From the sequence record PQ478073.1: a stretch of 64,000 bases of DNA; one strand, 5' to 3'. The stretch is from a phage. Positions 1,772-63,648 of this stretch are shown piece after piece. Below the pieces are notes generated by a model. It saw only the letters and a list, made by a program, of their open reading frames with translations, was not told where the DNA came from and did not search any database. The translations under genes were made by a program, and so were the position numbers. How positions within the stretch are numbered: the stretch's first letter is position 1; each line of letters opens with the position of its first letter.

Positions 1772-2389
1772 ATGAAATCTCATGATTTAGCAAAATTACT
1801 ACTATCTCAACCAAATCTAGAAATTTATCATTATGATGCAGAGAGTGACTTGCATTATCAGAATTTTGATAATAAATTAATGGTCACCCCATCTGGCATT
1901 TTCACAACGGTAAAACCCACATCAGTTTCTGAAAATGTACTTACACCATACGAAACCCCGCTCTTGGGTCATGTACAAATTTTCTTTAAGGATGGTACTA
2001 TTACTCCAAAATTGGAGGGTTCATCTATTCAAACTGTTCTTAACTTAGAATCTGGGTTGATATTTAACATTCCTTATGAAAAGCCAATTGTTTTATTAGG
2101 TAAAAATCAATCAGCACCATCAGGGAATCAAAATGCTGTTTGGTATACACCCGATGATATTGATTTCATTTCAGTACTGACAGAATATGATCCTAATACT
2201 TGGCATGAAACATGGGAAAATATGTCATATGATGAAGCAATTGAATGTGGTAAAAATTTAGCCAAAATGTTATTTCCACCAAAAAAAGAACTTTCACAAG
2301 AACAAAATGAATCATTTTCTAAAGATTTTCCTGATTCTGAATTCAATGTAAAAGTATCACCTTCTATGATTGATAAAATTGAAAAATAA
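1772..2389 (+). CDS. hypothetical protein (205 aa), paralogue of 3125..3709
   Basis: ORF track frame; start moved to ATG 1772 (SD ggagaa, downstream of terminator); N-terminus MKSHDLAKLLLSQPNLEIYHY matches MKAKDLAALLLQNPEMEVYHEH of 3125..3709. Confidence 0.6.
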   Translation: MKSHDLAKLLLSQPNLEIYHYDAESDLHYQNFDNKLMVTPSGIFTTVKPTSVSENVLTPYETPLLGHVQIFFKDGTITPKLEGSSIQTVLNLESGLIFNIPYEKPIVLLGKNQSAPSGNQNAVWYTPDDIDFISVLTEYDPNTWHETWENMSYDEAIECGKNLAKMLFPPKKELSQEQNESFSKDFPDSEFNVKVSPSMIDKIEK

Positions 2390-2401
2390 AAGAGGTTGAA
2401 C

Positions 2402-2755
2402 ATGAGTGATTACCGCGTAACATCTGGACTAATGGCACGTCTTATTGAAGCAGTTCCTGAAGATGATTATGAAGCTATTTCAGATCGTCTTTTTGACGCA
2501 GATTCTAAACTCCATATTACATATGATGGTGCATTGATTTACAGTACTGATATTGATATGTCTAGTTATGAATTTGAGATTTCTTTTGGTAACAAACTAA
2601 CTACTGAAGAATTCGCTCGAAAATGTGAGCGTGAAGGATTCTGTATTGATATTAGTTCAGTTCAGCCATATACATCACTGTGGTATGATGGTGCTGATAG
2701 TCCAATGTCTACTACATCTTTACAGGATTTTCTAAATGCAAATCAAAAAGATTAA
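2402..2755 (+). CDS. hypothetical protein (117 aa)
   Basis: ORF track frame; ATG 2402 preceded by agagg SD. Confidence 0.5.
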   Translation: MSDYRVTSGLMARLIEAVPEDDYEAISDRLFDADSKLHITYDGALIYSTDIDMSSYEFEISFGNKLTTEEFARKCEREGFCIDISSVQPYTSLWYDGADSPMSTTSLQDFLNANQKD

Positions 2756-27080: not shown

Positions 27081-27108
27081 TTGACAAGATAGAATGATGT
27101 GATATAAT
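27081..27108 (+). promoter_or_regulatory. sigma70-like consensus promoter (class B), upstream copy
   Basis: TTGACA 27081-27086, 16-nt spacer, TG-extended TATAAT 27103-27108. Confidence 0.65.
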
Positions 27109-27173: not shown

Positions 27174-27201
27174 TTGACAAGTTGAAACGATGTGATATAA
27201 T
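27174..27201 (+). promoter_or_regulatory. sigma70-like consensus promoter (class B), downstream copy
   Basis: TTGACA 27174-27179, 16-nt spacer, TG-extended TATAAT 27196-27201; core TTGACAAG...GATGTGATATAATG nearly identical to upstream copy. Confidence 0.65.
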
Positions 27202-27370: not shown

Positions 27371-28696
27371 ATGACTACTCAAAACGATATCCTGAACGTT
27401 AAACTGACTCCAAAGAAAGCTAAAGAAGCAATGGCACTAGCTGACATGATTCAAGATAGCCTGATGATTTGGGGTAGCCCAGGTATCGGTAAGTCTGCAA
27501 TCGCTCGTCAATACGCTGATGAAAATTACCCACTGCGTAAAGATAACGTAGCTAAAATCGAGTTCATGAAACAACAAATCGAAGCTGACCCTGAAAATGC
27601 TGATCAGCTACGCCGTGAACTGGTTGCATTTGAAGCAAAACTAATCGACCAAGATACTAACTTTATCGATTTCCGTTTGTCTCAAATCGAACCAAGTGAC
27701 CTTCGCGGTATCCCTGTACCAGAGAAGCTTTTCCGTAAAACTGACGGTTCTCTTCTCAAAGAATCTGAGCTTGCTGAAGCAAAAGATTATGTGGCTGAAA
27801 CTGCTGTAGTATGGGCTGCACCTAAAGTACTGAAATTGTCCGAAGATTGGAAAGGTGTTATTCTGTTTGACGAAATTAACTCTGCAATGCCTATTGTTCA
27901 GGCAGCGTCTTATCAGCTAATCCTCGACCGTTGTGTTGGTGAGATGAAGCTACCTAAGACTGCACTGATTCTTGCAGCAGGTAACCGTGAAACTGATGGC
28001 GGTGTAACGTTCTCTCTTGCTACACCACTGCGTGACCGTATGACTCACATTGAGATGATTCCTTATCATCAAGATTGGATTAACGATTATGCGATTGCAA
28101 AACGTTTGAACCCAGCAACTGTTGCGTTCATCAACAACACTGGTTCTAAGTACTTTAACACACTTAGCCCACAAGATCCTTCTCACAGCGGTGGTACTTC
28201 TCCACGTTCATGGGAAGCAGTAGCACGCTACGAAGATCTCAAGAAAAATAAGACAATTGATAAAGAAGTGTTCCGTGCAATGATTGCTGGTCGTGTTGGT
28301 GAAGGTGTTGCGACTGAATACATTGAGTACGTTGAGAACGTTGCTAAACTACCAGATACTATGTCTATTCTGTCTGGTGAAATCAAAGAAATCGACGCAA
28401 CGCTGGATATTTCTGCGAACTACTTTATCACTCTGAACTTGGTTTATAAAATTATCGACCTGTTCAATGAGAAGCAAGAACAACGTCTACCAGTGGAAGA
28501 ATGGGGTAAACTGTGTAACAACTTCATCACCTTCCTAGACCATAACTTCTCTGCAACTCAAGCAGAACTGGCAGTACTGGCAATTCGTACCATCACGCTT
28601 CATAAGGTTGCGATTTCCATTAAAGATGTACCAGCGTTTAAAGATTTCATCGCTAAGTACTCTGAACTTGTACGTAAAGCACGCTCTCTTGGCTAA
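27371..28696 (+). CDS. MoxR-like AAA+ ATPase (441 aa)
   Basis: Walker A GSPGIGKS, Walker B VILFDEIN, ILAAGNRE sensor-1-like, SPRSWEAV sensor-2-like; aaggaaa SD; G/C-richer codon usage than neighbours. Confidence 0.75.
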   Translation: MTTQNDILNVKLTPKKAKEAMALADMIQDSLMIWGSPGIGKSAIARQYADENYPLRKDNVAKIEFMKQQIEADPENADQLRRELVAFEAKLIDQDTNFIDFRLSQIEPSDLRGIPVPEKLFRKTDGSLLKESELAEAKDYVAETAVVWAAPKVLKLSEDWKGVILFDEINSAMPIVQAASYQLILDRCVGEMKLPKTALILAAGNRETDGGVTFSLATPLRDRMTHIEMIPYHQDWINDYAIAKRLNPATVAFINNTGSKYFNTLSPQDPSHSGGTSPRSWEAVARYEDLKKNKTIDKEVFRAMIAGRVGEGVATEYIEYVENVAKLPDTMSILSGEIKEIDATLDISANYFITLNLVYKIIDLFNEKQEQRLPVEEWGKLCNNFITFLDHNFSATQAELAVLAIRTITLHKVAISIKDVPAFKDFIAKYSELVRKARSLG

Positions 28697-51232: not shown

Positions 51233-51262
51233 TTGTAGACAAACCGTAAGAATGTGATATAA
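51233..51262 (+). promoter_or_regulatory. promoter-like site (class B -10, weaker -35)
   Basis: gaatgTGATATAATg with TATAAT at 51257-51262; TTGTAG/TAGACA -35-like 15-18 nt upstream. Confidence 0.45.
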
Positions 51263-51303
51263 TGTTTATTAATTAGAGTGACGTGAATCACATAGGAGAA
51301 TAC

Positions 51304-53592
51304 ATGAATCTTACTCAATTGTTCAAAAAAAGCGACGAACTGGCAACATCTCTAGGTCATACATTCTTGACTATTGACCACGTAAGTGCCACAGTACTGA
51401 CTATTGATAGCATCAAGAACGTATTTGAAGATATGAACATTGATGCAGACAAACTGCACAACCGCCTGATGAACTATCTTAAAAATACAACAGTTCCACA
51501 TGCACCAAAAAGTGTTAAAGATGAAGACGCGAATCGCACTTCACTTCTAGTGAATCGCGTTGTACATGAGCTTTCTAAAAAATCAGTTATTGAACAACTA
51601 AAAAGTGATGATTTTTCGATTGATGCATATTTTGTTCTATTCGAATGTCTGTCTTTCCCTAACACAGCACTAGAAGCTGCGTTGAAAGAAGAAGGTGTTA
51701 GCTGTACTGAAGCTGCACGTGCATTGCAAAAACACGTTGAGTCACTTGATAAGGGTATCAACTTACAAAGTATTAATGACGAACCGATTGGAGATAAAAA
51801 AGTGGCCCAACAGCAGCAATCATCTAAACAAAAAGGTTTGGAAGACTATACAACGAATCTAACAGCTCTTGCAAAAGAAGGCAAACTAGATCCTATGATT
51901 GGTCGCCAGAAAGAATTGTCTGCATTGATTGAGACTCTTGCTCGCAAAACCAAAAAGAATGCTATTCTTACTGGTGAAGCTGGTGTAGGTAAAACACAAA
52001 TCATCGACGGTCTTGCACAAGCTATTGCTGACGGCAACGTACCTGAACACCTGAAAGACGTTGAAATTCTTTCACTAAATGTTGGTGCATTGACTGCTGG
52101 TACTAAGTATCGTGGTGAGTTTGAAGAACGCATCGACAATTTGCTAAAAGAACTAAAGAAACGTGAAAATACTATTGTTTTCATTGATGAAATTCATATT
52201 ATGGTTGGGGCTGGTTCCGCAAGTAATGGTTCTATGGACATGAGCAATATGCTTAAGCCAGCACTTTCACGTGGTGAGATTCGTGTAATTGGTGCAACAA
52301 CATATGATGAATATCGTAAAAATATCGAGAAAGATAGTGCATTAACTCGTCGTTTTATGAAAATTGATGTAGTTGAGCCGTCAATTGATGAAACTCGTGC
52401 AATTGTTAATGGTTTGAAACCAACTTATGAAAAATTCCATAATGTTGAGTTCACAACTGATGCAATGGATGCTGTAATTTCTCTCAGTGATAAATTCCTG
52501 AAGAATAAGCACTTCCCAGATAAAGCAATTGATCTAATGGACGCTGCTGCTGCAAAAGTTCGTTCACGTGACAACAATAGTAAGCTTATTACTGCCAATT
52601 TGATTCAAGAAGTTGTTGCTGGTATTGCCAATTTGGATATCAACGTGGTTGCATGTACTGAAAGTGATCGTATGCGTAATCTACCAGATGCACTACGCTC
52701 ACGTGTATACGGTCAAGAGGAAGCTATTCAAAAATTAGTTGATAACGTGATGGTAGCTCGTGCAGGTCTGCGTGACAAATCTAGTGTTCAGGGTGCATTT
52801 ATGTTTGTTGGACCATCTGGTACTGGTAAAACAGAAATTACCAAAGCATTAGCAGATGCAACTGGTGCGGAACTGATTCGCTTTGATATGTCAGAATTTT
52901 CTCAAGAACATACTGTTTCTAAACTAATTGGTTCACCTCCAGGTTATGTTGGTCATGATTCTGGTAACGGTTTACTGTTGGATAAAATTGAGCAGTTCCC
53001 TAATGCAGTACTGTTACTTGATGAAATTGAAAAAGCAGATCGTAAAGTACTACTAACCTTCCTACAGGTTTTGGATGAAGGTCGCCTGACTGGTTCACAA
53101 GGTAAAACTGTATATTTTAATAACGTAACTGTTATTATGACTACAAACCTTGGTGCGGCAGATTCAACGAAGCGTAGCATTGGTATGAGCGGTAGTGATA
53201 CTGCACAAGACAAGGCTATTAAAGCATTCTTGCCACCAGAGTTCATTAACCGTATTGATAGTATCGTTACGTTTAAAGACCTAAGCAGTGAAGCTATTGA
53301 CAGCATCATTGATAAGTTCATGGGCAGTTTGAATGAACAAGTCAAAGACCGCAATGTTAAAGTTACGTTGACAAAAGCTGCACGTGAATGGCTTGCGAAA
53401 AATGGGGTAAAAGTTGGCATGGGTGCACGTCCAATGAAACGTACCATTGAACAAAACATTCGTGTACCACTAGCTAAAGAAATGTTGTGTGGTTCACTTG
53501 TGAATGGTGGTAACATTACATTTGATGTTATTGATGGTAAAATCGGTATTAAACCTAAACGTTCCAAAGCTGTAGATAAAGCACTGGCATAA
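51304..53592 (+). CDS. ClpA-like double-AAA+ chaperone/unfoldase
   Basis: Start at ATG 51304 after AGGAG (ORF track GTG 51283); Walker [11 protein letters not shown] and [10 protein letters not shown], Walker B FIDEIH and [22 protein letters not shown] tripeptide (KRSIGMSG) at the ClpA IGL-loop position; no long ClpB-type middle domain. Confidence 0.85.
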
Positions 53593-53628
53593 AAAAAGAA
53601 AAGGAGAGCAACATGCTCTCCTTTTTTA
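53593..53628. terminator. bidirectional rho-independent terminator
   Basis: A-run, ggagagca / aca / tgctctcc hairpin, T-run, between convergent clpA-like and giant gene. Confidence 0.75.
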
Positions 53629-56600
53629 TTATTTAACTAATAATATATTTTTAATATCATTACCACTAACTTGTAGACTATCAGTGTATACTGAAAGATC
53701 TATAGTGTAACTATTTTGTGTGTAACGTTTTAACATATCATAATTACCTAAATTAATTCCATTGAATGAATATGTAGTATTAAGTTTAAAATCATGTTCT
53801 GCACTATACATTACTCCACGGAGTAAATTATTTGCATTTCTAACTTCAACTTTTTCATATCCAATCGATATAATATCATTTATGTTCGCGGCAGAACCGG
53901 ATAAAACATTATTTCTAATACTATAAGGACTTATTGATTTAGGTTGAGAAACATAGGTTGTATTTTCTTCACTAATGGTTGTGATGTTAGTAACCGTACC
54001 ACCAACAACACCGATGTACATACCGTCAACCATTGGATAACCATAAACCCATATACCTTCATTATTTCTAAACGGTTGAATAACACTTGAATCATATTCA
54101 ATAACGTTGATTTCTAAACTATCAGTCATTTTAGTTCTTGCTAATTCACTAAGAACTCCCGCACCAGTAATTGGTAGGTTATAACCGTTGTCGATAGTAA
54201 TTCCATCAACATCAAATATTTCGTTAGAGATTATCCAAACGTCAACGTCATCTGGTGTTATTCCGTCATTGTACTTACCACCATTTAAAGTAGTATCGTA
54301 GAAAACATCATAATTAATTACATCAATTGTGTAATTTCTATTTTGTTCGTACAATTTGATACCATTCTTCACAAATTCTGGGTCAGCAAATGTTCTAACA
54401 CGAACAATGTTCAATGCAAGAGGCTGTACTGGCTCATTTTGTTGTGCAAGAGTGATATTATCATAACGGAGAACTGCACCAGTACTCTCATCAATCAATT
54501 CAATCGTTTCTTTACCTGTATTTCTTACAGTGAATAGGATCGGAGTTGTATTGTTTTTGATGTTAGATACACGCAAGATTGTTTCCCATGTGTGATTTTG
54601 ATATCTCACAAAATCTTCACCATCAGGAGTGAAAATCATCACCTTATCACCATCAGATAGGTCATTGTCAACTATTTCTGCTTCAGTTAAGCTATTAATA
54701 GATCTCACACGATAGAAATATTTTTCATCAAACTTCGATGTTGTTTTATTAATATCATTTTCAATCTTAGCATATGAAGGAATACTAACAATTGCTTCTG
54801 TATGTTTATATGGATTGATAATTGCCATACCTTCAGTTTGATATCTGCTGTTATCACGTAATTGTACAAGAGATACATTGTCAAACCCATATCCATCAAC
54901 TGTAAATCTAATTTGACCAACATCACGCCCAGAAGGGTTTATGTCAGATATATCCACAATATAAGGATCAACTTCATCATCTTTAACTTCCCATTTTATT
55001 GAAGAAGTTTGAGATTCTAATGCTAGGTTATCAAATGCATTCATATCATTGAAGTACTTAGCTTCAGTAATACTATCAAGTATATATTGATAATCTGAAT
55101 ACATTGGGTTATTTTGATCTAGTGGTAAATCATCTAGATTTATTTCAGCTAGTTCAATCATTTCACCATTTGTGATAAAATAATCTTCCATGAAATCATC
55201 AATACTTTGTTCATCAGGTATACTTTGATATACACCGTTAACATTTAAGTAAACATATTTTCGTGGAATCATTGTAATTGCATAGATATCAATTGGGGTT
55301 TTACTAAGAATCTCTTCAGCTTTTTCGTACTTATCAGTAGCGTCTTTGTCGAATAACCCTCTCATACCTGCTAATACGTGAATAGCATCAGTATAGAAAC
55401 GGGTATCACCACCGACTTCATCATAACGATAAACATATACACCATACTCAACTTCAAGTTTAACTTTTACTTCATAGTCTGATGCGTCAGGATTTTTATC
55501 TTTAATTAATGAAATATATTTTTGATACAGTTCACTGCTTATTTCAAAATATCCATAGTTATAATCATTACTAGAAGAAAAGCCTAATGGAAGTCTAGTA
55601 CTAGGATTGTCATTATAAGTAAGTCCACTAAATCCACAACCAACTTCATCGTGAATTTTCTCATCACTTATATCTTTATAAAGTTTCAAACGGTTTGCCA
55701 ATGTGTTATACTGAACATATTGTCTAAGGTCAGTAAACATATCGTTCTGCGTTGATTCTTTATAAACACGCTCCAATGTAGCAGTAAATTCATCAGTTGC
55801 TTCTAAATCTTCCGCATGGTCTTTATACCACTGGTTAACACCATATGCTGTTCCTAATGTTACATCCAATTCTGGATAGTAGATTTGCATTTGATAAGCA
55901 ATAAGAAGATCGAAAGTTTCTTCACTATATTCTGGGAAAGAATATATATAACGTTGTAATTCATAGTTACTAACAGCATCCTTTTCATTGGATTGATATT
56001 TGTTATTAACACTTACTAATTCATTTATGCTTGCTAAATCTGCATTTGGTTTACATTGAATGTTATCGTAATGCATAATAATATCAATTTCTTGGAATCT
56101 TCTATTTGGTGTAATGAAATCACTTGGTAGTGAACCTACCTGTTCCCATTTTTGGGTAATTTCATTAAATTGAGCGTACTCATAATCCCAAATATCTTTT
56201 TCAGTTTTGACCCAAGAACCGTCAACGAAAATATATCCATTAGGATCTAAATCATTACACAGACCTTTTATTAAATCATCATCAGATGTCTTTTGCTCTA
56301 TTTGTGAACGAATTTTAGTTCTATAAGGTTTAACTTCTTCAAAATATTCAACAATTTGATTAATCAAATTATCGTTTGAATAGTTTTGAACTAATGATTG
56401 TTCCAAACCAACAATATAGATATATGATGTTTTAAATACCCAATCCACAACACTTTGTTCAACATGTACATATTTGACCATATCAAAAACAATTTCGCTT
56501 TGATGTAAATCGAAAGAATTTTTGAGTAAAGCTAGTGCTTTACGAACGTTGATTTCACGATTGCTTAGTGAACCATTATCATTATGAACACTATAATCTG

Positions 56601-59600
56601 CGTAAAGCATATCATTGAGTTCAACTGTACTGTTTTCACGACCAATCGCTTTCCAATAAATTGAATCGCGTGATTGTGATTTAATATACAATGTCCAAAT
56701 GTTTTCACTATCGGTAACTCTGATAATATCTCCAACTTGGTAGTTTTTAGTATTAGCATCTTCTAAGCTTGACTCTTGTGTATAAGTCGTGTTACTATCA
56801 TACCCAACATCATACCAATCAGCATATGACCAGTACTGAGTCATGTCCAATGAAGTTCCTAGTGATTCAACATAATCAGATTGTTTAATCATTTTATGTT
56901 GTCCCTCACCTTTGTTCTCTAACGTTATAGTAACAACACTACCCGCGTTTGCTGGACTATTCATTAACTGAATATATCCATTTTCGTCGAAGTGAATAAA
57001 ATAAACAGCACTAGAAGTTAATGGATTTGGTAGATATCCACTAGTACTTAAAATAACAGCGTCATTTTCTTTAAATTTATCACTTTCAACTGCAATAACT
57101 AATTCATTATTGTAAGACAATACACGGAAAGAAACTTCATTCGGGTTAACTTCAGTGGTTTTAACATTAAACACATCTTCCATAACAACACTATTAGTGG
57201 TTATGTTTTGTGACCTATAATAATTATTAGCACTTTCTACAAAGTTTCTACGAGCTTCTATAACATTTTGGAACCAAGTTTTGTTTGAACCTAAACCGTT
57301 ATCAACATCTGGATATAATAAATTAATCACAGAACCTGATTCAGTTGTTTCTTGACCAATTAGTGAGTTCCACATTGAATCCCAAATTAGTGGGTTAAAG
57401 TTATAGCTGTCACCTTCTTTACATAGTTGATACTGGTCATGTTTAACAACTTCAGTACTATCCATGTAATAAGAAACAGTTAAAATACTGGTATCATCAT
57501 TCACTTTAAATTGCATATTACTAAGAATAAACGAGTTTTCATTGATTGGAGCGAACCAAGGAATGTTTAGCTGTGTTGGATCTTTAATAATACGAGCAAT
57601 GTCAGTACATGATTTTGTTCTGGTATGTAGTGGTGGTACATAAATTGTATCACGTACCCAGAAATAGTATTTTGTCACATAACTATCAGTTGAACTATCA
57701 TATTCCAAAAATGTACTATAATTATCTTCAAGTGCAGTTCCACTTGGTAGATACATAGTATTATTTTTGTTTTTCTTAGCAACATCTTTACAGTATTTGT
57801 CCCAGTTATATGGCTCAACTGGTGAACAAACCCACTCTAACACATCAATTGTACTATGTGGTAATAAACGACCCCAGTTGTAACGTTTGTATTCATTGGT
57901 TGCATCAATGTCAACATTACCGTCTGCGTCATAAATTGCACGAGTATAATCCAAATAAAATGCAGTGCTAGTGTTCCACCATACTTGACCAACTTTATCA
58001 GCACCCCAAGCCTGGATTAACTCTCCATTACTATTATACTGTGCAGGATCAACTGGTGAAGTATATGTTACGTTTTGCATAGCCGCACCTGGAATAACAC
58101 CATTAATTGGGTCATAAACGTTTAGATATAGCTCAGTAATGTTAGTACGTTCATCATATGTCGTTGGACGATCAAATAAAGTACTTTGTGGTGCTTTAAA
58201 ACTATATTTCTTGTCAATGTAAGCTTGACGTTCATCAGTACTGGCAAAACGTGATACATAACGATACAAACGTGGACGTGTATCTGGATCAGTAAATTCA
58301 ATATCAATAGAAGTGTCAAATGGAACTACCATAACTTTAGGATCAGAACCAGCAGTATAATATTGACTTTCTACTGTTAAAGTATCTGGCATAAAGTTAG
58401 TTTCATCAACAAAATAATAATAATCACCATCTTCAAGTGGTACATTATCAGTTAAAGTTACTTTACAAAATTGTTCAGCATACACATCGGTATTTTCAAT
58501 AGGTGTTATAGAAACCATTTGAACATTAGTATCAACCAATTCAAAAATGTTCCACAAACCATTACCGTCTTTAAACATCCACACAGATTCAGGATTTTCA
58601 CCTTTACCATTAGTATAAGTTATGCGGTCATTATATGCAGTACTGAAATCTTTTGTTGTGTACGATACTTCATCCAATGTTACTGGACCAATATCTGGAA
58701 GTTGGATATTTTCACTTCTTCCACTACGCATTGGGAATGAGAACTTACCATTTGGACGTGTAATCCAACGAGGATCTTTACCCTGCTCACCGAAGTATAC
58801 AATATGATTACCATTACCATTTGAAGTTGCATTTACATCAAAAGAAACCATTTGAGGTTGTTGTTTAAATTGGTCATTGATTAGTTTAAATTGAAGGTTT
58901 TTCTTACCATCAATATTACCATATGTACCAATTTTAAATGCCCATTCTTGTAATGCTTTATATTCATCAGTGTCATATGATTTAGAAACACGAAGGACAC
59001 GTTCTAAAACTTGGTTAGTACCTTTATCGTGAATGAATCCTTTATAGAAATCAACACGACTAACATCACTACTAATCATACGCTGTAGATAATCACGAGA
59101 TTGATAACCAATCAAATGGTTTGACAACTCTTGTAATTGTACATCACTTACTGGAGTTTCACTATCATAATAATGTTGGAAATCCGACACTAATTTTTCA
59201 AATGATGGTAGTGTTCCAGCTTCCAAGATAATAAATCCAGGAGCTTGTAGGCGACCAGTCCATGAACCAGTAATATATCCATACATTTTAATTAGTTCTT
59301 GAATAGAACCATATGTTGGCTGATAAATGTAATCACCAAAAATAGTTTTATCATCAAAAATAACAGCATGTTCATATGAACACAAACTTAAACGAATCAA
59401 TGCAATGCGTTTATTAGATTCTAAAGTTCTAACAGTGAAGATATTTCCAATACGAGAAGTTTCAATTTCATATTGGCGAATACCTTGGTTATTATCATCA
59501 AGTAATGACCATACACCACCATTATTTTGCGTAATAGATTGTACTGAACCAAAGTCTGCCCCAAATTTAGCGTTTGCAGCACTTGGGGTACAAGAAATAA

Positions 59601-62600
59601 ATTCACCAGTTACTAGAGAATTCTGACTCCAGATCACGAAATCTTTAGCAATAGTGTTCCAATCTTGTTGAGCACCACTATCATTTACATCTTCAAAAAT
59701 CCAACCATGTTCTTTAAGATATTCACCATATCCACAAATAAAAGTATAAACTTCTTGGTAACTATTGAAAACTTTACCATATTCAATTGAAGCTTCAGAC
59801 TTCCATTCATTATAATGAACAACATTACGGTTTTCCAATTTAAGAGTTACTTTTCTACCATTTTTTACGGGAAGTTTATATTTAAATTTAGCACCAACTA
59901 GATCATATCCATCAATCTGATATGCACTACCATTCCAAGTAATTTTGATCGCACTCATTTGCTCATCACGGATATTATTAGAACGAACAAGACCAATGGT
60001 TTGGTTTTCTTGTGAAATAAGACCGAAAGATTTAGCATTGAATGTTAGCTGATCTGCTTTAGTAAATCCTCCAATTTTATGACCAACATTTATATAAGAA
60101 GAACGAACTACATCCCCATACTTGGTGGTAATATTTTTATTTTGATACATCAAATGGTCACTTACAAACATTTGATAACCAATTGTTCTTGTGCTATTTT
60201 CACCATGAACTACTGTATTTTTATCAAAATTAATACGCTTACGTGTATCACCATAAAGGAATTGTGAACCATCAGTGAATACTTCTTTTAAGTTATCATT
60301 GCGGGTATCCCAGAAATAGTTAGCAAATTGTGCTGGTTTAGCTTTATACAAAAGCATCATTTGGTCATATGCAAACAATGTAGTGTTCATGTATGTAAAT
60401 TCCATGTCACCCATATCACCATATGTCCAAGGTTCTGCTCTATGATTTAAAGATCCAGACACTAAACCTAAAATTTCAGGTGCAATATATTCAACCACAC
60501 AAATATCAATACCAGAAGATGTTTTATTTCCAGTTTTTGTAATTTTGAATGGCTGTACACCAAATCTTTTATATTTGTCATATTGACCACGACGATCACC
60601 AAATAAAATAGTTCCAGTACTGCTATCGCCAATACTTCCGTCAATATCCCAAAGACCACTAGGAACTAAATCACCTTGCTCATTCATAACAAGTGCTTCA
60701 TATACATATACAACATCACTATCACGTTCACCAACTTGAACAGCCGTTGGTTCGTATTCTTGGTTCCACCAAGTTGGACGTTGTGTAAAGCCAAACATTT
60801 CCCACGGATGGGTAGCTGGGCGATATGTACCATATTGGTCAGTGTAAATGGCACGCCATGAACCACGTGCAGGAATTTCAGTACTTTGACCATTAACTAC
60901 ATAATAAGTGCCAGTATAGTTCCAAGTTCTCCAATTGTTAGGATCATAATCATGTGTACTATTACTGATACCATTAGTTGCGGTGAAGTTAATGTATCCA
61001 CGTAGTAATAATGTTTGTTTCTCTTCAGCACTATATTCAGTTTTAGTGAAATATGGTGTAGGGAAAAGGTCATCACTATTCAATACTGGTACGTAATCAA
61101 CATCTTTGAATTTATTATCAATACTATTAAAAATTCTATTTTCTAATTCATATACAACATCATCCATTTTATCAACACCATTGATAACACGGTATGCTTT
61201 GGAAATAATACCAGTATGACTGATGTTATAACAGCTTGGTTTACTACCAGCAGTGAGGAATGTCGCTTTTTCTGGTACATATGCTTGAAGAATACCTAAG
61301 AACTGTGGTGTTGGTGGTATAAATGCACGAATGAATCCAGAAGTACTTCCAACATTATCATAATAGAATGGGAATGAACTATCACGTCCCATATTAATAG
61401 TAGTTAAAATTGCATCAACAATGTTTGCAGCACTATTTTGTAAAAAGTCTGATGGATTTTCATCATACATACGAAGCATTTGTGTATTAAATTTATTAAT
61501 GAATCTAAAATATTCAGATTGCATAAACATAGTTGCTTCAAATAAATCAATATCTTCATTTGCAGTATGTGCCATCAATGGAAGCATAGATGCTTCATTT
61601 TGGATAATTTTAGTACCTACGCCATTATTAACCAATCCTTTAGCCAAACGTTCTTCATAGTCATTGAAATCATCAGAAGAACCACGTGTAATGTTCTTTT
61701 GAATAATATCCTGAAAATGTAAAGTGTAGTCACCTTGGTTAATGTATATAATATTAGAATTATATGGGTTATTTTGTAGGTTGATTGGAACTTCATAAGC
61801 ACCTAATTCTTTATCAGGTGTTACAGTACTGCTATAAGTTCTGATTTGAATAACAGAATCTTCATCCAATTCTACAGTACTATCTAGAGTGATGCTTTGT
61901 ACTTGACCTTTTGAAACATTTTTGGTATATTTGGACACATCAACACCATCAACCACAACTTCAATAATATCAGAATCATTATCTAAAACTTTTTGTGCCA
62001 ATTCGAATGTATGGTCATATTTTACAATCTGAACACCATCACCAGTAATTGGATGCCAATCTAGATAAGTTTCTCGGTCAGCTTTATAGTACTGATATGT
62101 TCTATCAACTTCAATAACATATGCATACATACCATCAACTGGTTCTTTAAAAACTTCCATATCATAAACAGTACTGAATACACGATACATATCAGTACGT
62201 TTGACTTGTGGAGTTTGTTTTACAAATTGTTTAGAGTACTCTTCTGAACGAACCCAATCGGTTTGAAGATTCATTTCATTATTTTCATCAATAATGTTAT
62301 AATAGTATAAACCATCAATTTCAACTTCTTTTCCAAGATGGTCATAGGTATAACGTTGGGATTGTAAAAAGTTTTCATAAATGTAATAATTATAATCACC
62401 AAGTTCAATGTTATATCCATATACACTATCAGTTGCATAGTTGTAATTTATTTTAAAACCAAACAACTCTGAACCTTTAAAGTTACTTGATGGATATGTA
62501 GTACTGTTGTCAAGTTTGATACCATTACGATCATAAAGTTGGAATTTAGGGAATACGTTAACACTAGTTTTTGATTGTGCACGAACCCACAAAGAACCAT

Positions 62601-63600
62601 TCCAGTACATAGAACTATTACCATACTCATTACCTTTAGTGATTAGAACAACATCACCATCTTGAGGTTCACCACTTGGGCGTGATTCGGTTTCTTCTTC
62701 TGGATCTAGTGCTAAACCATAAACACGAGTACCATCTTGCATTTTTTTCACATATACATTATAAATTCTATTGTTTTCACCATTGTTACCAATACTGGTG
62801 AATAGAATACGCATTCCATCTTGCGGAATAATACCATCAATACGTATACCACTATTAATATCTTTTTGAACGATATCTTCAGGTTTAATAATATCAGAGA
62901 ACAGATCAACAGTTCCACGGAATTTTGTACCGTAGTTAATTAGCTCAATATTTTTATTATATTCAATAATTGGTGCACGTGCACGAATAAAACGTGAATC
63001 TTGCATTAATTCTTCAGTTAATATTGAGCCATCTTCTAATGTTTCACCTAAAGTATACCAAAAGTTTTGTAGTGACCATGTATTACCATTAAGTGCTCCG
63101 CGTTCCATTACAATGTAATCAGGTGAAGTAATATTATAAGAGTTTTTAGTATCCCAAAGATATGAGCTAAAATTGTTCATTTTATTTGGGTTAATAGCTG
63201 GAGTCCATGCATAAAACTTACCGTTGAACAAACGGCTTTCATTATCGGTTAGTGCTCCATAATGATTCATGTATCCAACTAGATCATCATAAAATTGAAT
63301 TGAACGAATTGTCGAATCATCATTTTTTGAGACGTAAGCAGTGGACAACTGATAAAGTTGACGTGCTACAGTACTTTCATGTAAGAAGATATTACCAGCA
63401 GCGGCAGGAGAACCCATATCACCAATATAGCCGTCAACTAATTCGTTTTCAGCCGGATTAAACCATTGTTGAATAACATCATCACTGACTTTTTGAATAT
63501 CTTCTAAGCCTTGCATCCACTCAGGCAATCTTTTAATAAAAAGCTTCTTCTGTACTGCTTCAGCCATCTGTGTAGGTTGAAACTTAAAATTATTAGTCAT
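53629..63600 (-). CDS. giant protein of unknown function (about 3323 aa; 3333 aa if first ATG 63630 is used)
   Basis: Single uninterrupted ORF of about 10 kb; GGAG SD 7 nt upstream of ATG 63600, none upstream of 63630; Y/N/D-rich, no transmembrane or catalytic motif recognised by eye. Confidence 0.7.
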   Translation of the reverse strand: MTNNFKFQPTQMAEAVQKKLFIKRLPEWMQGLEDIQKVSDDVIQQWFNPAENELVDGYIGDMGSPAAAGNIFLHESTVARQLYQLSTAYVSKNDDSTIRSIQFYDDLVGYMNHYGALTDNESRLFNGKFYAWTPAINPNKMNNFSSYLWDTKNSYNITSPDYIVMERGALNGNTWSLQNFWYTLGETLEDGSILTEELMQDSRFIRARAPIIEYNKNIELINYGTKFRGTVDLFSDIIKPEDIVQKDINSGIRIDGIIPQDGMRILFTSIGNNGENNRIYNVYVKKMQDGTRVYGLALDPEEETESRPSGEPQDGDVVLITKGNEYGNSSMYWNGSLWVRAQSKTSVNVFPKFQLYDRNGIKLDNSTTYPSSNFKGSELFGFKINYNYATDSVYGYNIELGDYNYYIYENFLQSQRYTYDHLGKEVEIDGLYYYNIIDENNEMNLQTDWVRSEEYSKQFVKQTPQVKRTDMYRVFSTVYDMEVFKEPVDGMYAYVIEVDRTYQYYKADRETYLDWHPITGDGVQIVKYDHTFELAQKVLDNDSDIIEVVVDGVDVSKYTKNVSKGQVQSITLDSTVELDEDSVIQIRTYSSTVTPDKELGAYEVPINLQNNPYNSNIIYINQGDYTLHFQDIIQKNITRGSSDDFNDYEERLAKGLVNNGVGTKIIQNEASMLPLMAHTANEDIDLFEATMFMQSEYFRFINKFNTQMLRMYDENPSDFLQNSAANIVDAILTTINMGRDSSFPFYYDNVGSTSGFIRAFIPPTPQFLGILQAYVPEKATFLTAGSKPSCYNISHTGIISKAYRVINGVDKMDDVVYELENRIFNSIDNKFKDVDYVPVLNSDDLFPTPYFTKTEYSAEEKQTLLLRGYINFTATNGISNSTHDYDPNNWRTWNYTGTYYVVNGQSTEIPARGSWRAIYTDQYGTYRPATHPWEMFGFTQRPTWWNQEYEPTAVQVGERDSDVVYVYEALVMNEQGDLVPSGLWDIDGSIGDSSTGTILFGDRRGQYDKYKRFGVQPFKITKTGNKTSSGIDICVVEYIAPEILGLVSGSLNHRAEPWTYGDMGDMEFTYMNTTLFAYDQMMLLYKAKPAQFANYFWDTRNDNLKEVFTDGSQFLYGDTRKRINFDKNTVVHGENSTRTIGYQMFVSDHLMYQNKNITTKYGDVVRSSYINVGHKIGGFTKADQLTFNAKSFGLISQENQTIGLVRSNNIRDEQMSAIKITWNGSAYQIDGYDLVGAKFKYKLPVKNGRKVTLKLENRNVVHYNEWKSEASIEYGKVFNSYQEVYTFICGYGEYLKEHGWIFEDVNDSGAQQDWNTIAKDFVIWSQNSLVTGEFISCTPSAANAKFGADFGSVQSITQNNGGVWSLLDDNNQGIRQYEIETSRIGNIFTVRTLESNKRIALIRLSLCSYEHAVIFDDKTIFGDYIYQPTYGSIQELIKMYGYITGSWTGRLQAPGFIILEAGTLPSFEKLVSDFQHYYDSETPVSDVQLQELSNHLIGYQSRDYLQRMISSDVSRVDFYKGFIHDKGTNQVLERVLRVSKSYDTDEYKALQEWAFKIGTYGNIDGKKNLQFKLINDQFKQQPQMVSFDVNATSNGNGNHIVYFGEQGKDPRWITRPNGKFSFPMRSGRSENIQLPDIGPVTLDEVSYTTKDFSTAYNDRITYTNGKGENPESVWMFKDGNGLWNIFELVDTNVQMVSITPIENTDVYAEQFCKVTLTDNVPLEDGDYYYFVDETNFMPDTLTVESQYYTAGSDPKVMVVPFDTSIDIEFTDPDTRPRLYRYVSRFASTDERQAYIDKKYSFKAPQSTLFDRPTTYDERTNITELYLNVYDPINGVIPGAAMQNVTYTSPVDPAQYNSNGELIQAWGADKVGQVWWNTSTAFYLDYTRAIYDADGNVDIDATNEYKRYNWGRLLPHSTIDVLEWVCSPVEPYNWDKYCKDVAKKNKNNTMYLPSGTALEDNYSTFLEYDSSTDSYVTKYYFWVRDTIYVPPLHTRTKSCTDIARIIKDPTQLNIPWFAPINENSFILSNMQFKVNDDTSILTVSYYMDSTEVVKHDQYQLCKEGDSYNFNPLIWDSMWNSLIGQETTESGSVINLLYPDVDNGLGSNKTWFQNVIEARRNFVESANNYYRSQNITTNSVVMEDVFNVKTTEVNPNEVSFRVLSYNNELVIAVESDKFKENDAVILSTSGYLPNPLTSSAVYFIHFDENGYIQLMNSPANAGSVVTITLENKGEGQHKMIKQSDYVESLGTSLDMTQYWSYADWYDVGYDSNTTYTQESSLEDANTKNYQVGDIIRVTDSENIWTLYIKSQSRDSIYWKAIGRENSTVELNDMLYADYSVHNDNGSLSNREINVRKALALLKNSFDLHQSEIVFDMVKYVHVEQSVVDWVFKTSYIYIVGLEQSLVQNYSNDNLINQIVEYFEEVKPYRTKIRSQIEQKTSDDDLIKGLCNDLDPNGYIFVDGSWVKTEKDIWDYEYAQFNEITQKWEQVGSLPSDFITPNRRFQEIDIIMHYDNIQCKPNADLASINELVSVNNKYQSNEKDAVSNYELQRYIYSFPEYSEETFDLLIAYQMQIYYPELDVTLGTAYGVNQWYKDHAEDLEATDEFTATLERVYKESTQNDMFTDLRQYVQYNTLANRLKLYKDISDEKIHDEVGCGFSGLTYNDNPSTRLPLGFSSSNDYNYGYFEISSELYQKYISLIKDKNPDASDYEVKVKLEVEYGVYVYRYDEVGGDTRFYTDAIHVLAGMRGLFDKDATDKYEKAEEILSKTPIDIYAITMIPRKYVYLNVNGVYQSIPDEQSIDDFMEDYFITNGEMIELAEINLDDLPLDQNNPMYSDYQYILDSITEAKYFNDMNAFDNLALESQTSSIKWEVKDDEVDPYIVDISDINPSGRDVGQIRFTVDGYGFDNVSLVQLRDNSRYQTEGMAIINPYKHTEAIVSIPSYAKIENDINKTTSKFDEKYFYRVRSINSLTEAEIVDNDLSDGDKVMIFTPDGEDFVRYQNHTWETILRVSNIKNNTTPILFTVRNTGKETIELIDESTGAVLRYDNITLAQQNEPVQPLALNIVRVRTFADPEFVKNGIKLYEQNRNYTIDVINYDVFYDTTLNGGKYNDGITPDDVDVWIISNEIFDVDGITIDNGYNLPITGAGVLSELARTKMTDSLEINVIEYDSSVIQPFRNNEGIWVYGYPMVDGMYIGVVGGTVTNITTISEENTTYVSQPKSISPYSIRNNVLSGSAANINDIISIGYEKVEVRNANNLLRGVMYSAEHDFKLNTTYSFNGINLGNYDMLKRYTQNSYTIDLSVYTDSLQVSGNDIKNILLVK

Positions 63601-63648
63601 TTTTGGACTCCATATAATTCGTTCATTCATTTGATTTATTTATGATAT

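What the first reader, a model, noticed from the sequence alone, without database searches (positions are those of the whole stretch)
51304..53592. Phage-encoded ClpA-like unfoldase with an IGM ClpP-docking-type loop
Full two-ring AAA+ architecture with Clp-N-like N-terminus and a KRSIGMSG segment at the position of the ClpA IGL/IGF ClpP-binding loop, but no ClpP gene in this window. This suggests the phage unfoldase could dock onto host ClpP to redirect proteolysis, or act as a stand-alone remodeller. It has its own promoter-like site and terminator.
Basis: partly seen in the sequence, partly recalled or inferred. Interest (0 to 1): 0.5.

Follow-up and report, generated by a model that had tools for sequence, protein, structure and literature searches.

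The report
Jumbo-phage ClpA unfoldase; ClpP encoded elsewhere
This is the already-annotated ClpA-type protein-unfolding motor of the 121Q/PBECO4 group of giant coliphages, and because these phages also carry their own ClpP protease gene about 84 kb away, it most likely belongs to a phage-made ClpAP protease and does not need to hijack the host's ClpP.

Summary
Window 51304-53592 (+) encodes a 762-aa protein that aligns end to end with E. coli ClpA (E=6.5e-181, 43.9% identity). Every Walker, pore-loop, arginine-finger and sensor motif is intact. 'KRSIGM' lies column-for-column on the ClpA 'RKSIGL' ClpP-docking loop.

The gene is not new. The window is 96-98% identical to Asteriusvirus phages, where this gene is annotated 'ClpA-like' (121Q gp581, PHROG 4871). 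The literature notes it as conserved in Rak2-like jumbo phages.

The 'no ClpP, so host ClpP' reasoning fails beyond the window. 121Q and the window's closest relatives encode a genuine ClpP (gp464) with an intact Ser-His-Asp triad, plus a weak ClpS-like protein. ClpA is the only Clp-type ATPase in that genome. clpA and clpP carry near-identical rare extended -10 promoters.

One thing appears not to have been described. In the phage clade the docking tripeptide is atypical and hypervariable (consensus [IML]-G-M), against x-G-F in 88% of 150 diverse ClpAs. The phage ClpP pocket is also remodelled (F82 to N/S, L114 to G). This hints at a private interface but is unproven.

Best reading: the ATPase of a phage-encoded ClpAP(S) protease. 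Host-ClpP docking and stand-alone chaperone remain rivals. Interest is low to moderate.

The parts
51236..51263 (+). Sigma-70-type promoter-like site TAGACA-N16-TATAAT with extended -10 (GTGATATAAT), 41 nt upstream of the ATG
   Evidence: 11 of 12 matches plus TG. The strict motif occurs 3 times in the window against 0.06 expected from shuffles. It occurs only 7 times in the 348-kb 121Q genome, all on the + strand, and one copy lies in front of clpP.
51294..51299 (+). Shine-Dalgarno AGGAGA, 4 nt before the ATG
   Evidence: Read directly from the sequence.
51304..53592 (+). clpA-like CDS, 762 aa (N-domain, D1 AAA+, D2 AAA+, D2-small); orthologue of 121Q gp581
   Evidence: dN/dS is 0.08 against phage A4.
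51334..51480 (+). Clp_N repeat (aa 11-59) of the N-domain
   Evidence: PF02861 at 24.8 bits against a cutoff of 20.7. The N-domain also aligns to E. coli ClpA from residue 17.
51973..51996 (+). D1 Walker A GEAGVGKT (aa 224-231). Further D1 motifs: KYRG pore loop aa 268-271, Walker B FIDEIH aa 293-298, Arg fingers RR aa 349-350
   Evidence: the catalytic positions are invariant in 115 phage-clade sequences.
52792..53265 (+). D2 AAA+ module (PF07724, aa 497-654) with Walker A GPSGTGKT (503-510), GYVG pore loop (547-550), Walker B LLDEIEKA (571-578) and Arg finger R650
53179..53187 (+). IGM tripeptide (aa 626-628) at the position of the E. coli ClpA IGL ClpP-docking loop; it is followed by S, where E. 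coli has the fourth contact residue Ile
   Evidence: Gap-free alignment to 1ksf/6w1z. Pocket contacts are taken from bioRxiv 10.1101/820209.
53597..53627 (.). Bidirectional intrinsic-terminator-like hairpin between the convergent clpA and the 3333-aa virion gene
   Evidence: 14-bp stem with T runs on both strands.

Best explanation
The gene encodes a functional ClpA-type hexameric AAA+ unfoldase/translocase that is the ATPase component of a phage-encoded ClpAP protease.

Proposed mechanism:
1. Host sigma-70 RNA polymerase transcribes clpA from its own strong extended -10 promoter. This transcription is independent of the late virion genes that flank it on the opposite strand.
2. The protein assembles into a two-ring hexamer.
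3. It grips substrates with its KYR (D1) and GYVG (D2) pore loops.
4. It threads them, using ATP, into the chamber of the phage's own ClpP (121Q gp464 orthologue, encoded about 84 kb away). It docks on that ClpP through the [I/M/L]-G-M loops.
5. A phage ClpS-like protein (121Q gp48 orthologue) may feed substrates through the N-domain.

What is shown and what is inferred:
- Shown: ClpA identity, intact motifs, the position of the loop, purifying selection, the presence of ClpP in the lineage, and the shared promoter type.
- Inferred: the physical ClpA-ClpP(phage) pairing, the role of ClpS, the early timing, and the substrates (host proteins for takeover, or quality control of the very large phage proteome).
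For: ClpA identity:
- Full-length ClpA homology with no M-domain.
- All ATPase, pore-loop, arginine-finger and sensor motifs are invariant across 115 clade members.
- dN/dS is about 0.08 in every domain.
- IGM lies exactly at the IGL docking position.

Phage ClpP:
- 121Q gp464 matches PF00574 over 2-179/182 at 141 bits. It matches ATP-dependent ClpP models at 152-155 bits, but the ClpP-related head-maturation model at only 51 bits.
- The capsid protease is a separate T4 gp21-like gene, gp601.
- Ser-His-Asp is conserved in all 65 scored phage-clade ClpPs.
- ClpP is 99.6-100% identical in the four Salmonella SD phages closest to the window's clpA.

Pairing:
- At >=60% identity the phage collection holds 71 records with this ClpA and 70 with this ClpP.
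- Contig-matched pairs show that even phages with an MNM loop keep the ClpP.
- ClpA is the only Clp-type ATPase detectable in the 121Q genome.
- clpA and clpP each have their own terminator. Both have near-identical rare promoters, T[AG]GACA-N13-TGATATAAT, of which there are 7 in 348 kb.
- The ClpS-like gp48 matches PF02617 at 24.7 bits, above the cutoff of 23.
Against: - No experiment on any phage ClpA or ClpP was found in the searched literature.
- clpA and clpP are about 84 kb apart and are not an operon.
- The docking tripeptide is among the most variable positions of D2 in the clade. Some relatives have IGG, IGA, MSM or MNM. That could mean ClpP docking is relaxed or lost in parts of the clade.
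- Phage A4 changed IGM to LGL with no change in the listed ClpP pocket residues, so strict co-variation was not seen.
- The ClpS-like match is weak, and some N-degron and ClpA-contact residues differ (M40 to A, H66 to N, K84 to F).
- The TIGR02639 score of 755 is below the equivalog cutoff of 993.
- The ClpP evidence comes from close relatives (96-98% nucleotide identity), not from the window's own genome. That genome was not available beyond 64 kb.
Confidence: 0.6

Rival explanations
1. The phage ClpA docks through its IGM loops onto the host E. coli ClpP. It either redirects host proteolysis or competes with host ClpA and ClpX. This may happen in addition to pairing with phage ClpP.
For: - IGM is at the docking position and Met is hydrophobic.
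- E. coli ClpP accepts both IGL (ClpA) and IGF (ClpX).
- Ile and Gly of the tripeptide, and the preceding Ser, are retained.
- Iyer et al. propose that phage ClpS proteins feed the host ClpAP (PMC7824862).
Against: - The premise that no phage ClpP exists is false for this lineage.
- The loop differs from E. coli ClpA at L619M, I620S, H621G and Q622S, all of them contact residues in the ClpAP structure.
- In ClpX even I268L and F270L cause severe defects in E. coli ClpP binding (PMC7112951).
- x-G-M is found in only 1 of the other 150 diverse ClpA representatives.
Confidence: 0.2
2. Stand-alone unfoldase or chaperone. The ATPase works without any peptidase, remodelling or unfolding proteins. 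An example would be assisting assembly of the giant baseplate and tail proteins encoded next to it, as Iyer et al. suggested for jumbo-phage ClpA and ClpX.
For: - The gene is embedded in the tail and baseplate module, between a virion protein gene and the 3333-aa virion protein gene.
- The docking tripeptide is hypervariable, and in some relatives barely hydrophobic (IGG, IGA) or lacking the Gly (MSM, MNM).
- The suggestion appears in the literature (PMC7824862).
Against: - The gene is on the opposite strand, with a sigma-70-type promoter of its own, and is not part of the late structural operons.
- A hydrophobic x-G-x tripeptide is retained in the window's phage and in most of the clade.
- A canonical, catalytically intact ClpP co-occurs throughout the clade and has no other Clp ATPase partner in the genome.
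- The 62-protein virion list of the close relative phAPEC6 contains no Clp-named protein.
Confidence: 0.15
3. A decaying or non-functional captured host gene.
For: None, beyond the sub-threshold equivalog score.
Against: - The reading frame is intact.
- All catalytic motifs are invariant in 115 homologues.
- dN/dS is 0.08.
- Identity to E. coli ClpA is only 43.9%. The gene forms a deep phage-specific clade at >=53% identity, separated from other homologues (<=47%), so it is an ancient and maintained acquisition.
Confidence: 0.01

Closest known systems
E. coli ClpA (ClpAP protease ATPase; PDB 1KSF/1R6B, ClpAP cryo-EM 6W1Z, 7UIV)
   Same: - Same domain order: N-domain, D1, D2, D2-small, with no M-domain.
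- One end-to-end alignment at E=6.5e-181.
- Walker A/B motifs, KYR and GYVG pore loops, arginine fingers and sensor-2 are all present.
- The docking loop has the same length and position.
   Different: - Only 43.9% identical, and below the TIGR02639 and PRK11034 equivalog cutoffs.
- The loop is IGM-SGS where E. coli has IGL-IHQ.
- The N-D1 linker is Gln-rich and has no equivalent of the internal Met169 start.
- It is encoded by a virulent phage and is paired in the genome with a divergent phage ClpP.
ClpA-like proteins of Rak2-like / Asteriusvirus jumbo phages (121Q gp581, PBECO4, phAPEC6, RaK2_00069, GAP32; PHROG 4871 'ATP-dependent protease')
   Same: - 99.3-99.6% amino-acid identity to 21 GenBank records, and 76% to RaK2.
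- PHROG 4871 matches at 1036 bits over the full length.
- Synteny is identical to 121Q and A4.
[quoted passage not shown]
   Different: Essentially nothing: this is the same gene. Across the clade the docking tripeptide differs: IGM here, LGL in A4, IGV in RaK2, LGM in GAP32, MGM in XbC2.
ClpB/Hsp104 and ClpC (other class-I Hsp100 ATPases)
   Same: Two AAA+ rings and a Clp_N domain, with strong sequence similarity in D1 and D2.
   Different: These align only as two separate stretches, because their coiled-coil M-domain has no counterpart here. ClpB also lacks a ClpP-docking loop. The scores are lower than for ClpA.

Membership tests
ClpA (class-I Clp/Hsp100 ATPase of the ClpAP protease) | Two AAA+ modules, each with Walker A, Walker B, arginine finger(s) and sensor motifs | tested here: met
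   D1 has [14 protein letters not shown] and RR. D2 has [17 protein letters not shown]650 and GARP. All are present, and the catalytic positions are invariant in the clade.
ClpA (class-I Clp/Hsp100 ATPase of the ClpAP protease) | N-terminal Clp_N domain | tested here: met
   PF02861 matches aa 11-59 at 24.8 bits against a cutoff of 20.7. TIGR02639 aligns from aa 3. The second repeat was not detected separately.
ClpA (class-I Clp/Hsp100 ATPase of the ClpAP protease) | No coiled-coil middle (M) domain between D1 and D2, which distinguishes ClpA from ClpB and ClpC | tested here: met
   The protein is 762 aa. It aligns to ClpA as one stretch, but to ClpB, ClpC and Hsp104 as two stretches.
ClpA (class-I Clp/Hsp100 ATPase of the ClpAP protease) | Substrate-gripping pore-1 loops (KYR in D1, GYVG in D2) | tested here: met
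   KYRG is at aa 268-271 and GYVG at aa 547-550. Both are conserved in the clade.
ClpA (class-I Clp/Hsp100 ATPase of the ClpAP protease) | ClpP-docking loop with the hydrophobic [LIV]-G-[FL] tripeptide in D2 | tested here: inconclusive
   The loop has the right position and length, and I-G is retained. The third residue is Met, however, and the following contact residue Ile is Ser. Among the other 150 diverse representatives, x-G-F makes up 88% and IGM occurs once.
ClpA (class-I Clp/Hsp100 ATPase of the ClpAP protease) | Score above the curated equivalog cutoff (TIGR02639 993 bits; PRK11034 1350 bits) | tested here: not met
   The scores are 755.2 and 656.3 bits. ClpA is the best-scoring family, but this is a divergent phage clade and not an NCBI equivalog.
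ClpA (class-I Clp/Hsp100 ATPase of the ClpAP protease) | Binds ClpP and supports ATP-dependent degradation | not testable with these tools
   This needs biochemistry. No multimer structure prediction was available.
Rak2-like jumbo-phage ClpA clade (PHROG 4871) | Full-length match to the phage family profile and conserved genomic position | tested here: met
   PHROG 4871 matches at 1036.5 bits, aa 2-756 against 11-761/764. Synteny is the same as in 121Q and A4.
Complete ClpAP(S) system encoded by one genome | A catalytically competent ClpP in the same genome | tested here: inconclusive
   ClpP is absent from the 64-kb window. It is present with an intact triad in 121Q, and is 99.6-100% identical in the four Salmonella SD phages closest to the window's clpA. 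The window's own complete genome could not be examined.
Complete ClpAP(S) system encoded by one genome | A ClpS adaptor with an N-degron pocket and a ClpA N-domain contact surface | tested here: inconclusive
   121Q gp48 matches PF02617 at 24.7 bits (cutoff 23) but only weakly matches the NCBIfam ClpS models. D35, T38 and E79 are kept. M40 is A, H66 is N and K84 is F.
ClpB/Hsp104 disaggregase | M-domain coiled coil and no ClpP-docking loop | tested here: not met
   There is no M-domain, and a docking-type loop is present.

The most novel reading that the evidence does not exclude
Rak2-like jumbo phages carry a self-contained, orthogonal ClpAP(S) protease whose unfoldase-peptidase interface has drifted away from the cellular standard. 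On the ClpA side the consensus is [IML]-G-M. On the ClpP side, F82 has become N/S, L114 has become G, and there is a clade-specific C-terminal extension of about 20 aa. Under this reading the phage ClpA and phage ClpP work with each other, without being titrated by host ClpX, ClpA or ClpP. That would give the phage a private degradation channel, expressed early, for host takeover or for proteome quality control.
Probability: 0.3. Interest if true: 0.6.

Novelty: already known. Interest (0 to 1): 0.3.

Why it matters
The gene as such is a re-discovery of an annotated, literature-noted phage ClpA.

What could matter is that no one appears to have tested what a virulent phage does with a complete AAA+ protease of its own. 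The sequence data also suggest that its docking interface differs from the host's. If the phage ClpA-ClpP pair is orthogonal to E. coli ClpP, ClpX and ClpA, three things would follow:
- it would be a natural example of an insulated degradation module;
- it could serve as a tool for targeted proteolysis in bacteria;
- it would open a way to study how jumbo phages reshape the host proteome.

None of this is demonstrated here.

Tried and rejected
1. Searched the window for ClpP, ClpS and HslV homologues by tblastn at E<=10 and found nothing. I therefore fetched the whole genome of the close relative 121Q.

2. Tested for co-variation between the ClpA tripeptide and the ClpP pocket residues in 11 genome-matched pairs.
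- The clade-wide shift is clear.
- Within the clade there was no convincing residue-for-residue compensation. A4 has LGL and 121Q has IGM, yet their pocket residues are identical.
- MGM co-occurs with Y62F only in three closely related phages. RaK2 has IGV with Y82/F112, which is a single anecdote.
- I therefore do not claim co-evolution.

3. Considered gp464 as the capsid maturation protease, as RefSeq and PHROG 94 name it. I rejected this for two reasons. It matches ATP-dependent ClpP models three times better than the head-maturation model, and a T4 gp21-like prohead protease exists separately.

4. Looked for a second Clp-type ATPase in 121Q that could be ClpP's partner and found none. The AAA ATPase gp563 (window 27371-28696) has no IGF-like motif and no PDB relative.

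5. Literature searches for experimental work on phage ClpA or ClpP in Rak2-like phages returned only genome descriptions. This covers open-access PMC and bioRxiv only.

6. tRNA and Rfam scans of the window found nothing.

Full report
**What is there**

The window holds one long ORF on the + strand, from 51283 (GTG) or 51304 (ATG) to 53592. The ATG at 51304 follows an AGGAGA ribosome-binding site by 4 nt. It is also the start annotated in the orthologous gene of phage 121Q, so the product is 762 aa.

Pfam finds a Clp_N repeat (aa 11-59, above the gathering score), AAA (D1), AAA_lid_9, AAA_2 (D2) and ClpB_D2-small. The best NCBIfam model is TIGR02639 ClpA. It covers almost the whole protein and the whole model at 755 bits, which is below the equivalog cutoff of 993. 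ClpB, ClpV, ClpK and ClpG score lower and align only in two pieces.

Against the PDB, the top hits are E. coli ClpA (1ksf, 6w1z, 7uiv) as one stretch, 17-741 against 20-734, E=6.5e-181. Identity over the 710 aligned columns is 43.9%.

**The IGM loop**

In that alignment '[19 protein letters not shown]' pairs without gaps with E. coli 'TTNAGVRETERKSIGLIHQ'. IGM (aa 626-628, nt 53179-53187) therefore sits exactly where the IGL ClpP-docking tripeptide sits.

In the ClpAP cryo-EM structure, I617, G618, L619 and I620 insert into a ClpP cleft. That cleft is formed by A52, L48, F49 and F82 of one protomer, and L23, Y60, Y62, I90, M92, F112, L114 and L189 of the next. H621 and Q622 make polar contacts (bioRxiv 10.1101/820209). 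The phage protein keeps I and G but has L619M, I620S, H621G and Q622S.

**Is the protein functional?**

In an alignment of 115 phage-clade homologues, the catalytic positions of every Walker A/B, pore-loop (KYR, GYVG), arginine-finger and sensor-2 motif are invariant. Against the orthologue of phage A4 (84% amino-acid identity), dN/dS is about 0.08 overall and 0.05-0.09 in the N-domain, D1 and D2. dS is close to saturation. This is a maintained, active-looking ClpA-type motor.

**Where the window comes from, and what is already known**

- The gene is 98.2-98.6% identical in DNA and 99.3-99.6% in protein to 21 GenBank records. These are Asteriusvirus jumbo coliphages (121Q, PBECO4, phAPEC6, slurp01, SP27 and others) and four Salmonella 'SD' phages. 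It is 76% identical to Klebsiella phage RaK2.
- The whole window is collinear with 121Q positions of about 247.3-311 kb.
- It matches PHROG 4871 'ATP-dependent protease' at 1036 bits.
[quoted passage not shown] The existence and family assignment of this gene are therefore not new. I found no experimental study of it in the open-access literature I could search.

**The missing ClpP**

The window indeed has no ClpP or ClpS homologue. I fetched the complete 121Q genome and found the following.

- **A genuine ClpP, gp464.** It lies at 214,364-215,059, about 84 kb from clpA.
  - It matches PF00574 over 2-179/182 at 141 bits. It matches ATP-dependent ClpP models at 152-155 bits, against 51 bits for the 'ClpP-related head maturation protease' model.
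  - It is 35.6% identical to E. coli ClpP, and the Ser-His-Asp triad is conserved.
  - The capsid protease of these phages is a separate T4 gp21-like gene, gp601. The RefSeq name 'head maturation protease' for gp464 is therefore an annotation artefact inherited from PHROG 94.
- **The ClpP is present in the window's nearest relatives.** It is 99.6-100% identical in the four Salmonella SD phages closest to the window's clpA, 100% in PBECO4, 121Q and many others, and 65-75% in RaK2, GAP32, CBB, XbC2 and Serratia BF.
- **ClpA and ClpP co-occur.** At >=60% identity the phage collection holds 71 records with this ClpA and 70 with this ClpP.
- **Other protease-related genes in 121Q.** These are a ClpS-like protein (gp48, PF02617 at 24.7 bits against a cutoff of 23) next to an IF3 homologue, a very divergent ClpP-like protein with a signal-peptide-like N-terminus (gp473), and a weak HslV-like protein (gp475).
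- **No second Clp-type ATPase.** tblastn with the D1 and D2 modules finds none in 121Q. ClpA and gp464 are therefore each other's only phage-encoded candidate partners.

**Regulatory signals**

A promoter-like site lies 41 nt upstream of the ATG: TAGACA-16-TATAAT with an upstream TG, at 51236-51263. A bidirectional hairpin terminator (53597-53627) separates clpA from the convergent 3333-aa virion gene.

The generic promoter scan is not enriched over shuffles. The strict motif TNGACA-N13-TGNTANAAT is enriched: it occurs 3 times in the window against 0.06 expected. It occurs only 7 times in the 348-kb 121Q genome, all on the + strand. One copy precedes clpA and one precedes clpP (TGGACA-N13-TGATATAAT). 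clpP also has its own terminator.

The IF3/ClpS-like pair is preceded by a perfect TTGACA-17-TATAAT. The flanking virion genes lie on the other strand, and the phage encodes a late sigma factor. I infer that clpA and clpP are transcribed by host sigma-70 RNA polymerase as independent, probably early, units. I have not shown this.

**An apparently undescribed feature: an atypical, variable docking interface**

- Among 150 representatives of ClpA-like proteins clustered at 50% identity, the tripeptide is x-G-F in 88%. Gly is present in about 147 of the 150. IGM occurs once.
- In the phage clade (>=53% identity to the query, separated by a gap from other homologues at <=47%) it is IGM, MGM, LGM, IGV (RaK2), IGA, LGL, IGG, MSM, MNM, VGF and others.
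- The clade consensus is [IML]-G-M, with Met in 60 of 115 sequences. Positions 626 and 628 fall in the 87th and 92nd percentile of variability within D2, while the catalytic motifs have zero entropy.
- On the other side of the interface, all scored phage-clade ClpPs keep the triad. However, E. coli F82, which is aromatic in the non-phage-clade ClpPs sampled, is N, S, G, T or C in nearly all of them; RaK2 has Y. L114 is G in nearly all of them. Y62 is mostly kept.
- The phage ClpPs also share a C-terminal extension of about 20 aa (...RNEEGKYLVKRRGGVEEWV) beyond the E. coli C-terminus.
- In ClpX, even I268L and F270L cause severe defects in E. coli ClpP binding (PMC7112951). Cross-docking of an IGM-S loop onto host ClpP therefore cannot be assumed.

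These observations fit a lineage-specific, perhaps private, ClpA-ClpP interface. The test for residue-level co-variation was negative or anecdotal. Phage A4 has LGL with exactly the same pocket residues as 121Q. MGM goes with Y62F only in three closely related phages. Loop variability could equally reflect relaxed constraint on docking.

**Verdict**

It is partly wrong where it is most interesting, because the phage lineage has its own ClpP.

- **Most likely (about 0.6).** The gene encodes the ATPase of a phage-encoded ClpAP protease, possibly with a ClpS-like adaptor.
- **Rival: docking on host ClpP (about 0.2).** This is not mutually exclusive with the main reading.
- **Rival: peptidase-independent chaperone role in virion assembly (about 0.15).** Against the virion-associated form of this idea, the 62-protein virion list of the close relative phAPEC6 contains no Clp-named protein. 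CBB virions yielded only a single ClpP peptide.

The finding is a re-identification of a known, annotated gene. Its residual interest lies in the untested biology of a phage-encoded Clp protease and its atypical docking interface.

Noticed in passing
window 27081-27108 and 27174-27201 (+), upstream of the ORF at 27371-28696 (+): There are two tandem copies of the same rare strong extended -10 promoter motif (TTGACA-N13-TGATATAAT) found in front of clpA and clpP. They precede a 441-aa AAA-type ATPase (121Q gp563). That protein matches PHROG 1297 'ATPase', has a weak Pfam AAA hit, has no PDB relative, and is of unknown function.
   Followed up: partly
window 53629-63630 (-): A 3333-aa ORF converges on clpA. 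It is the orthologue of 121Q gp582, a 'virion structural protein', and of the 381.9-kDa virion protein detected in phAPEC6. It is one of the largest phage structural proteins, and its function is not assigned.
   Followed up: no
L006:18364-19059 (121Q gp464), outside the window: RefSeq names this canonical ClpP a 'head maturation protease', a name inherited from PHROG 94. It scores three times better against ATP-dependent ClpP models, and the phage has a separate T4 gp21-like prohead protease (gp601). The name is probably a systematic mis-annotation across Rak2-like phages.
   Followed up: yes
C-termini of the phage-clade ClpPs (e.g. L006:18364-19059, P0127, P0140): There is a conserved C-terminal extension of about 20 aa (...G-x-RN-E-x-G-x-Y-x-V-K-RR-x-G-x-x-x-W-V/I) beyond the end of E. 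coli ClpP, next to the docking cleft. In some bacterial ClpP paralogues the C-terminus occludes that cleft. The role here is unknown.
   Followed up: partly
L006:22420-23028 and L006:23356-23952 (121Q gp473, gp475), outside the window: A small cluster of further protease-like genes lies 3-5 kb from clpP. One is a very divergent ClpP-like protein with a signal-peptide-like N-terminus. The other is a weak HslV-like protein (NCBIfam E about 1e-3).
   Followed up: partly
L002:33944-35006 (121Q gp47-gp48), outside the window: A phage IF3 homologue, with both IF3 domains, lies directly upstream of the ClpS-like gene and behind a perfect consensus sigma-70 promoter. In Atu_ph07 and AP-J-162 the literature reports a gene annotated as clpX in the same IF3/topoisomerase neighbourhood.
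   Followed up: no
window 2360-2725: About 366 bp of the window have no megablast counterpart in 121Q, where the flanking matches are only 15 bp apart. This is a small indel or replacement relative to 121Q.
   Followed up: no
MH494197.1 Escherichia phage CMSTMSU (hit H56): In this record the ClpA orthologue is matched in 5 pieces and is annotated as several fragments (ClpA x2, ClpB, hypothetical x3). Its ClpP is matched in 2 pieces. This is probably due to frameshift or sequencing errors in that assembly.
   Followed up: no
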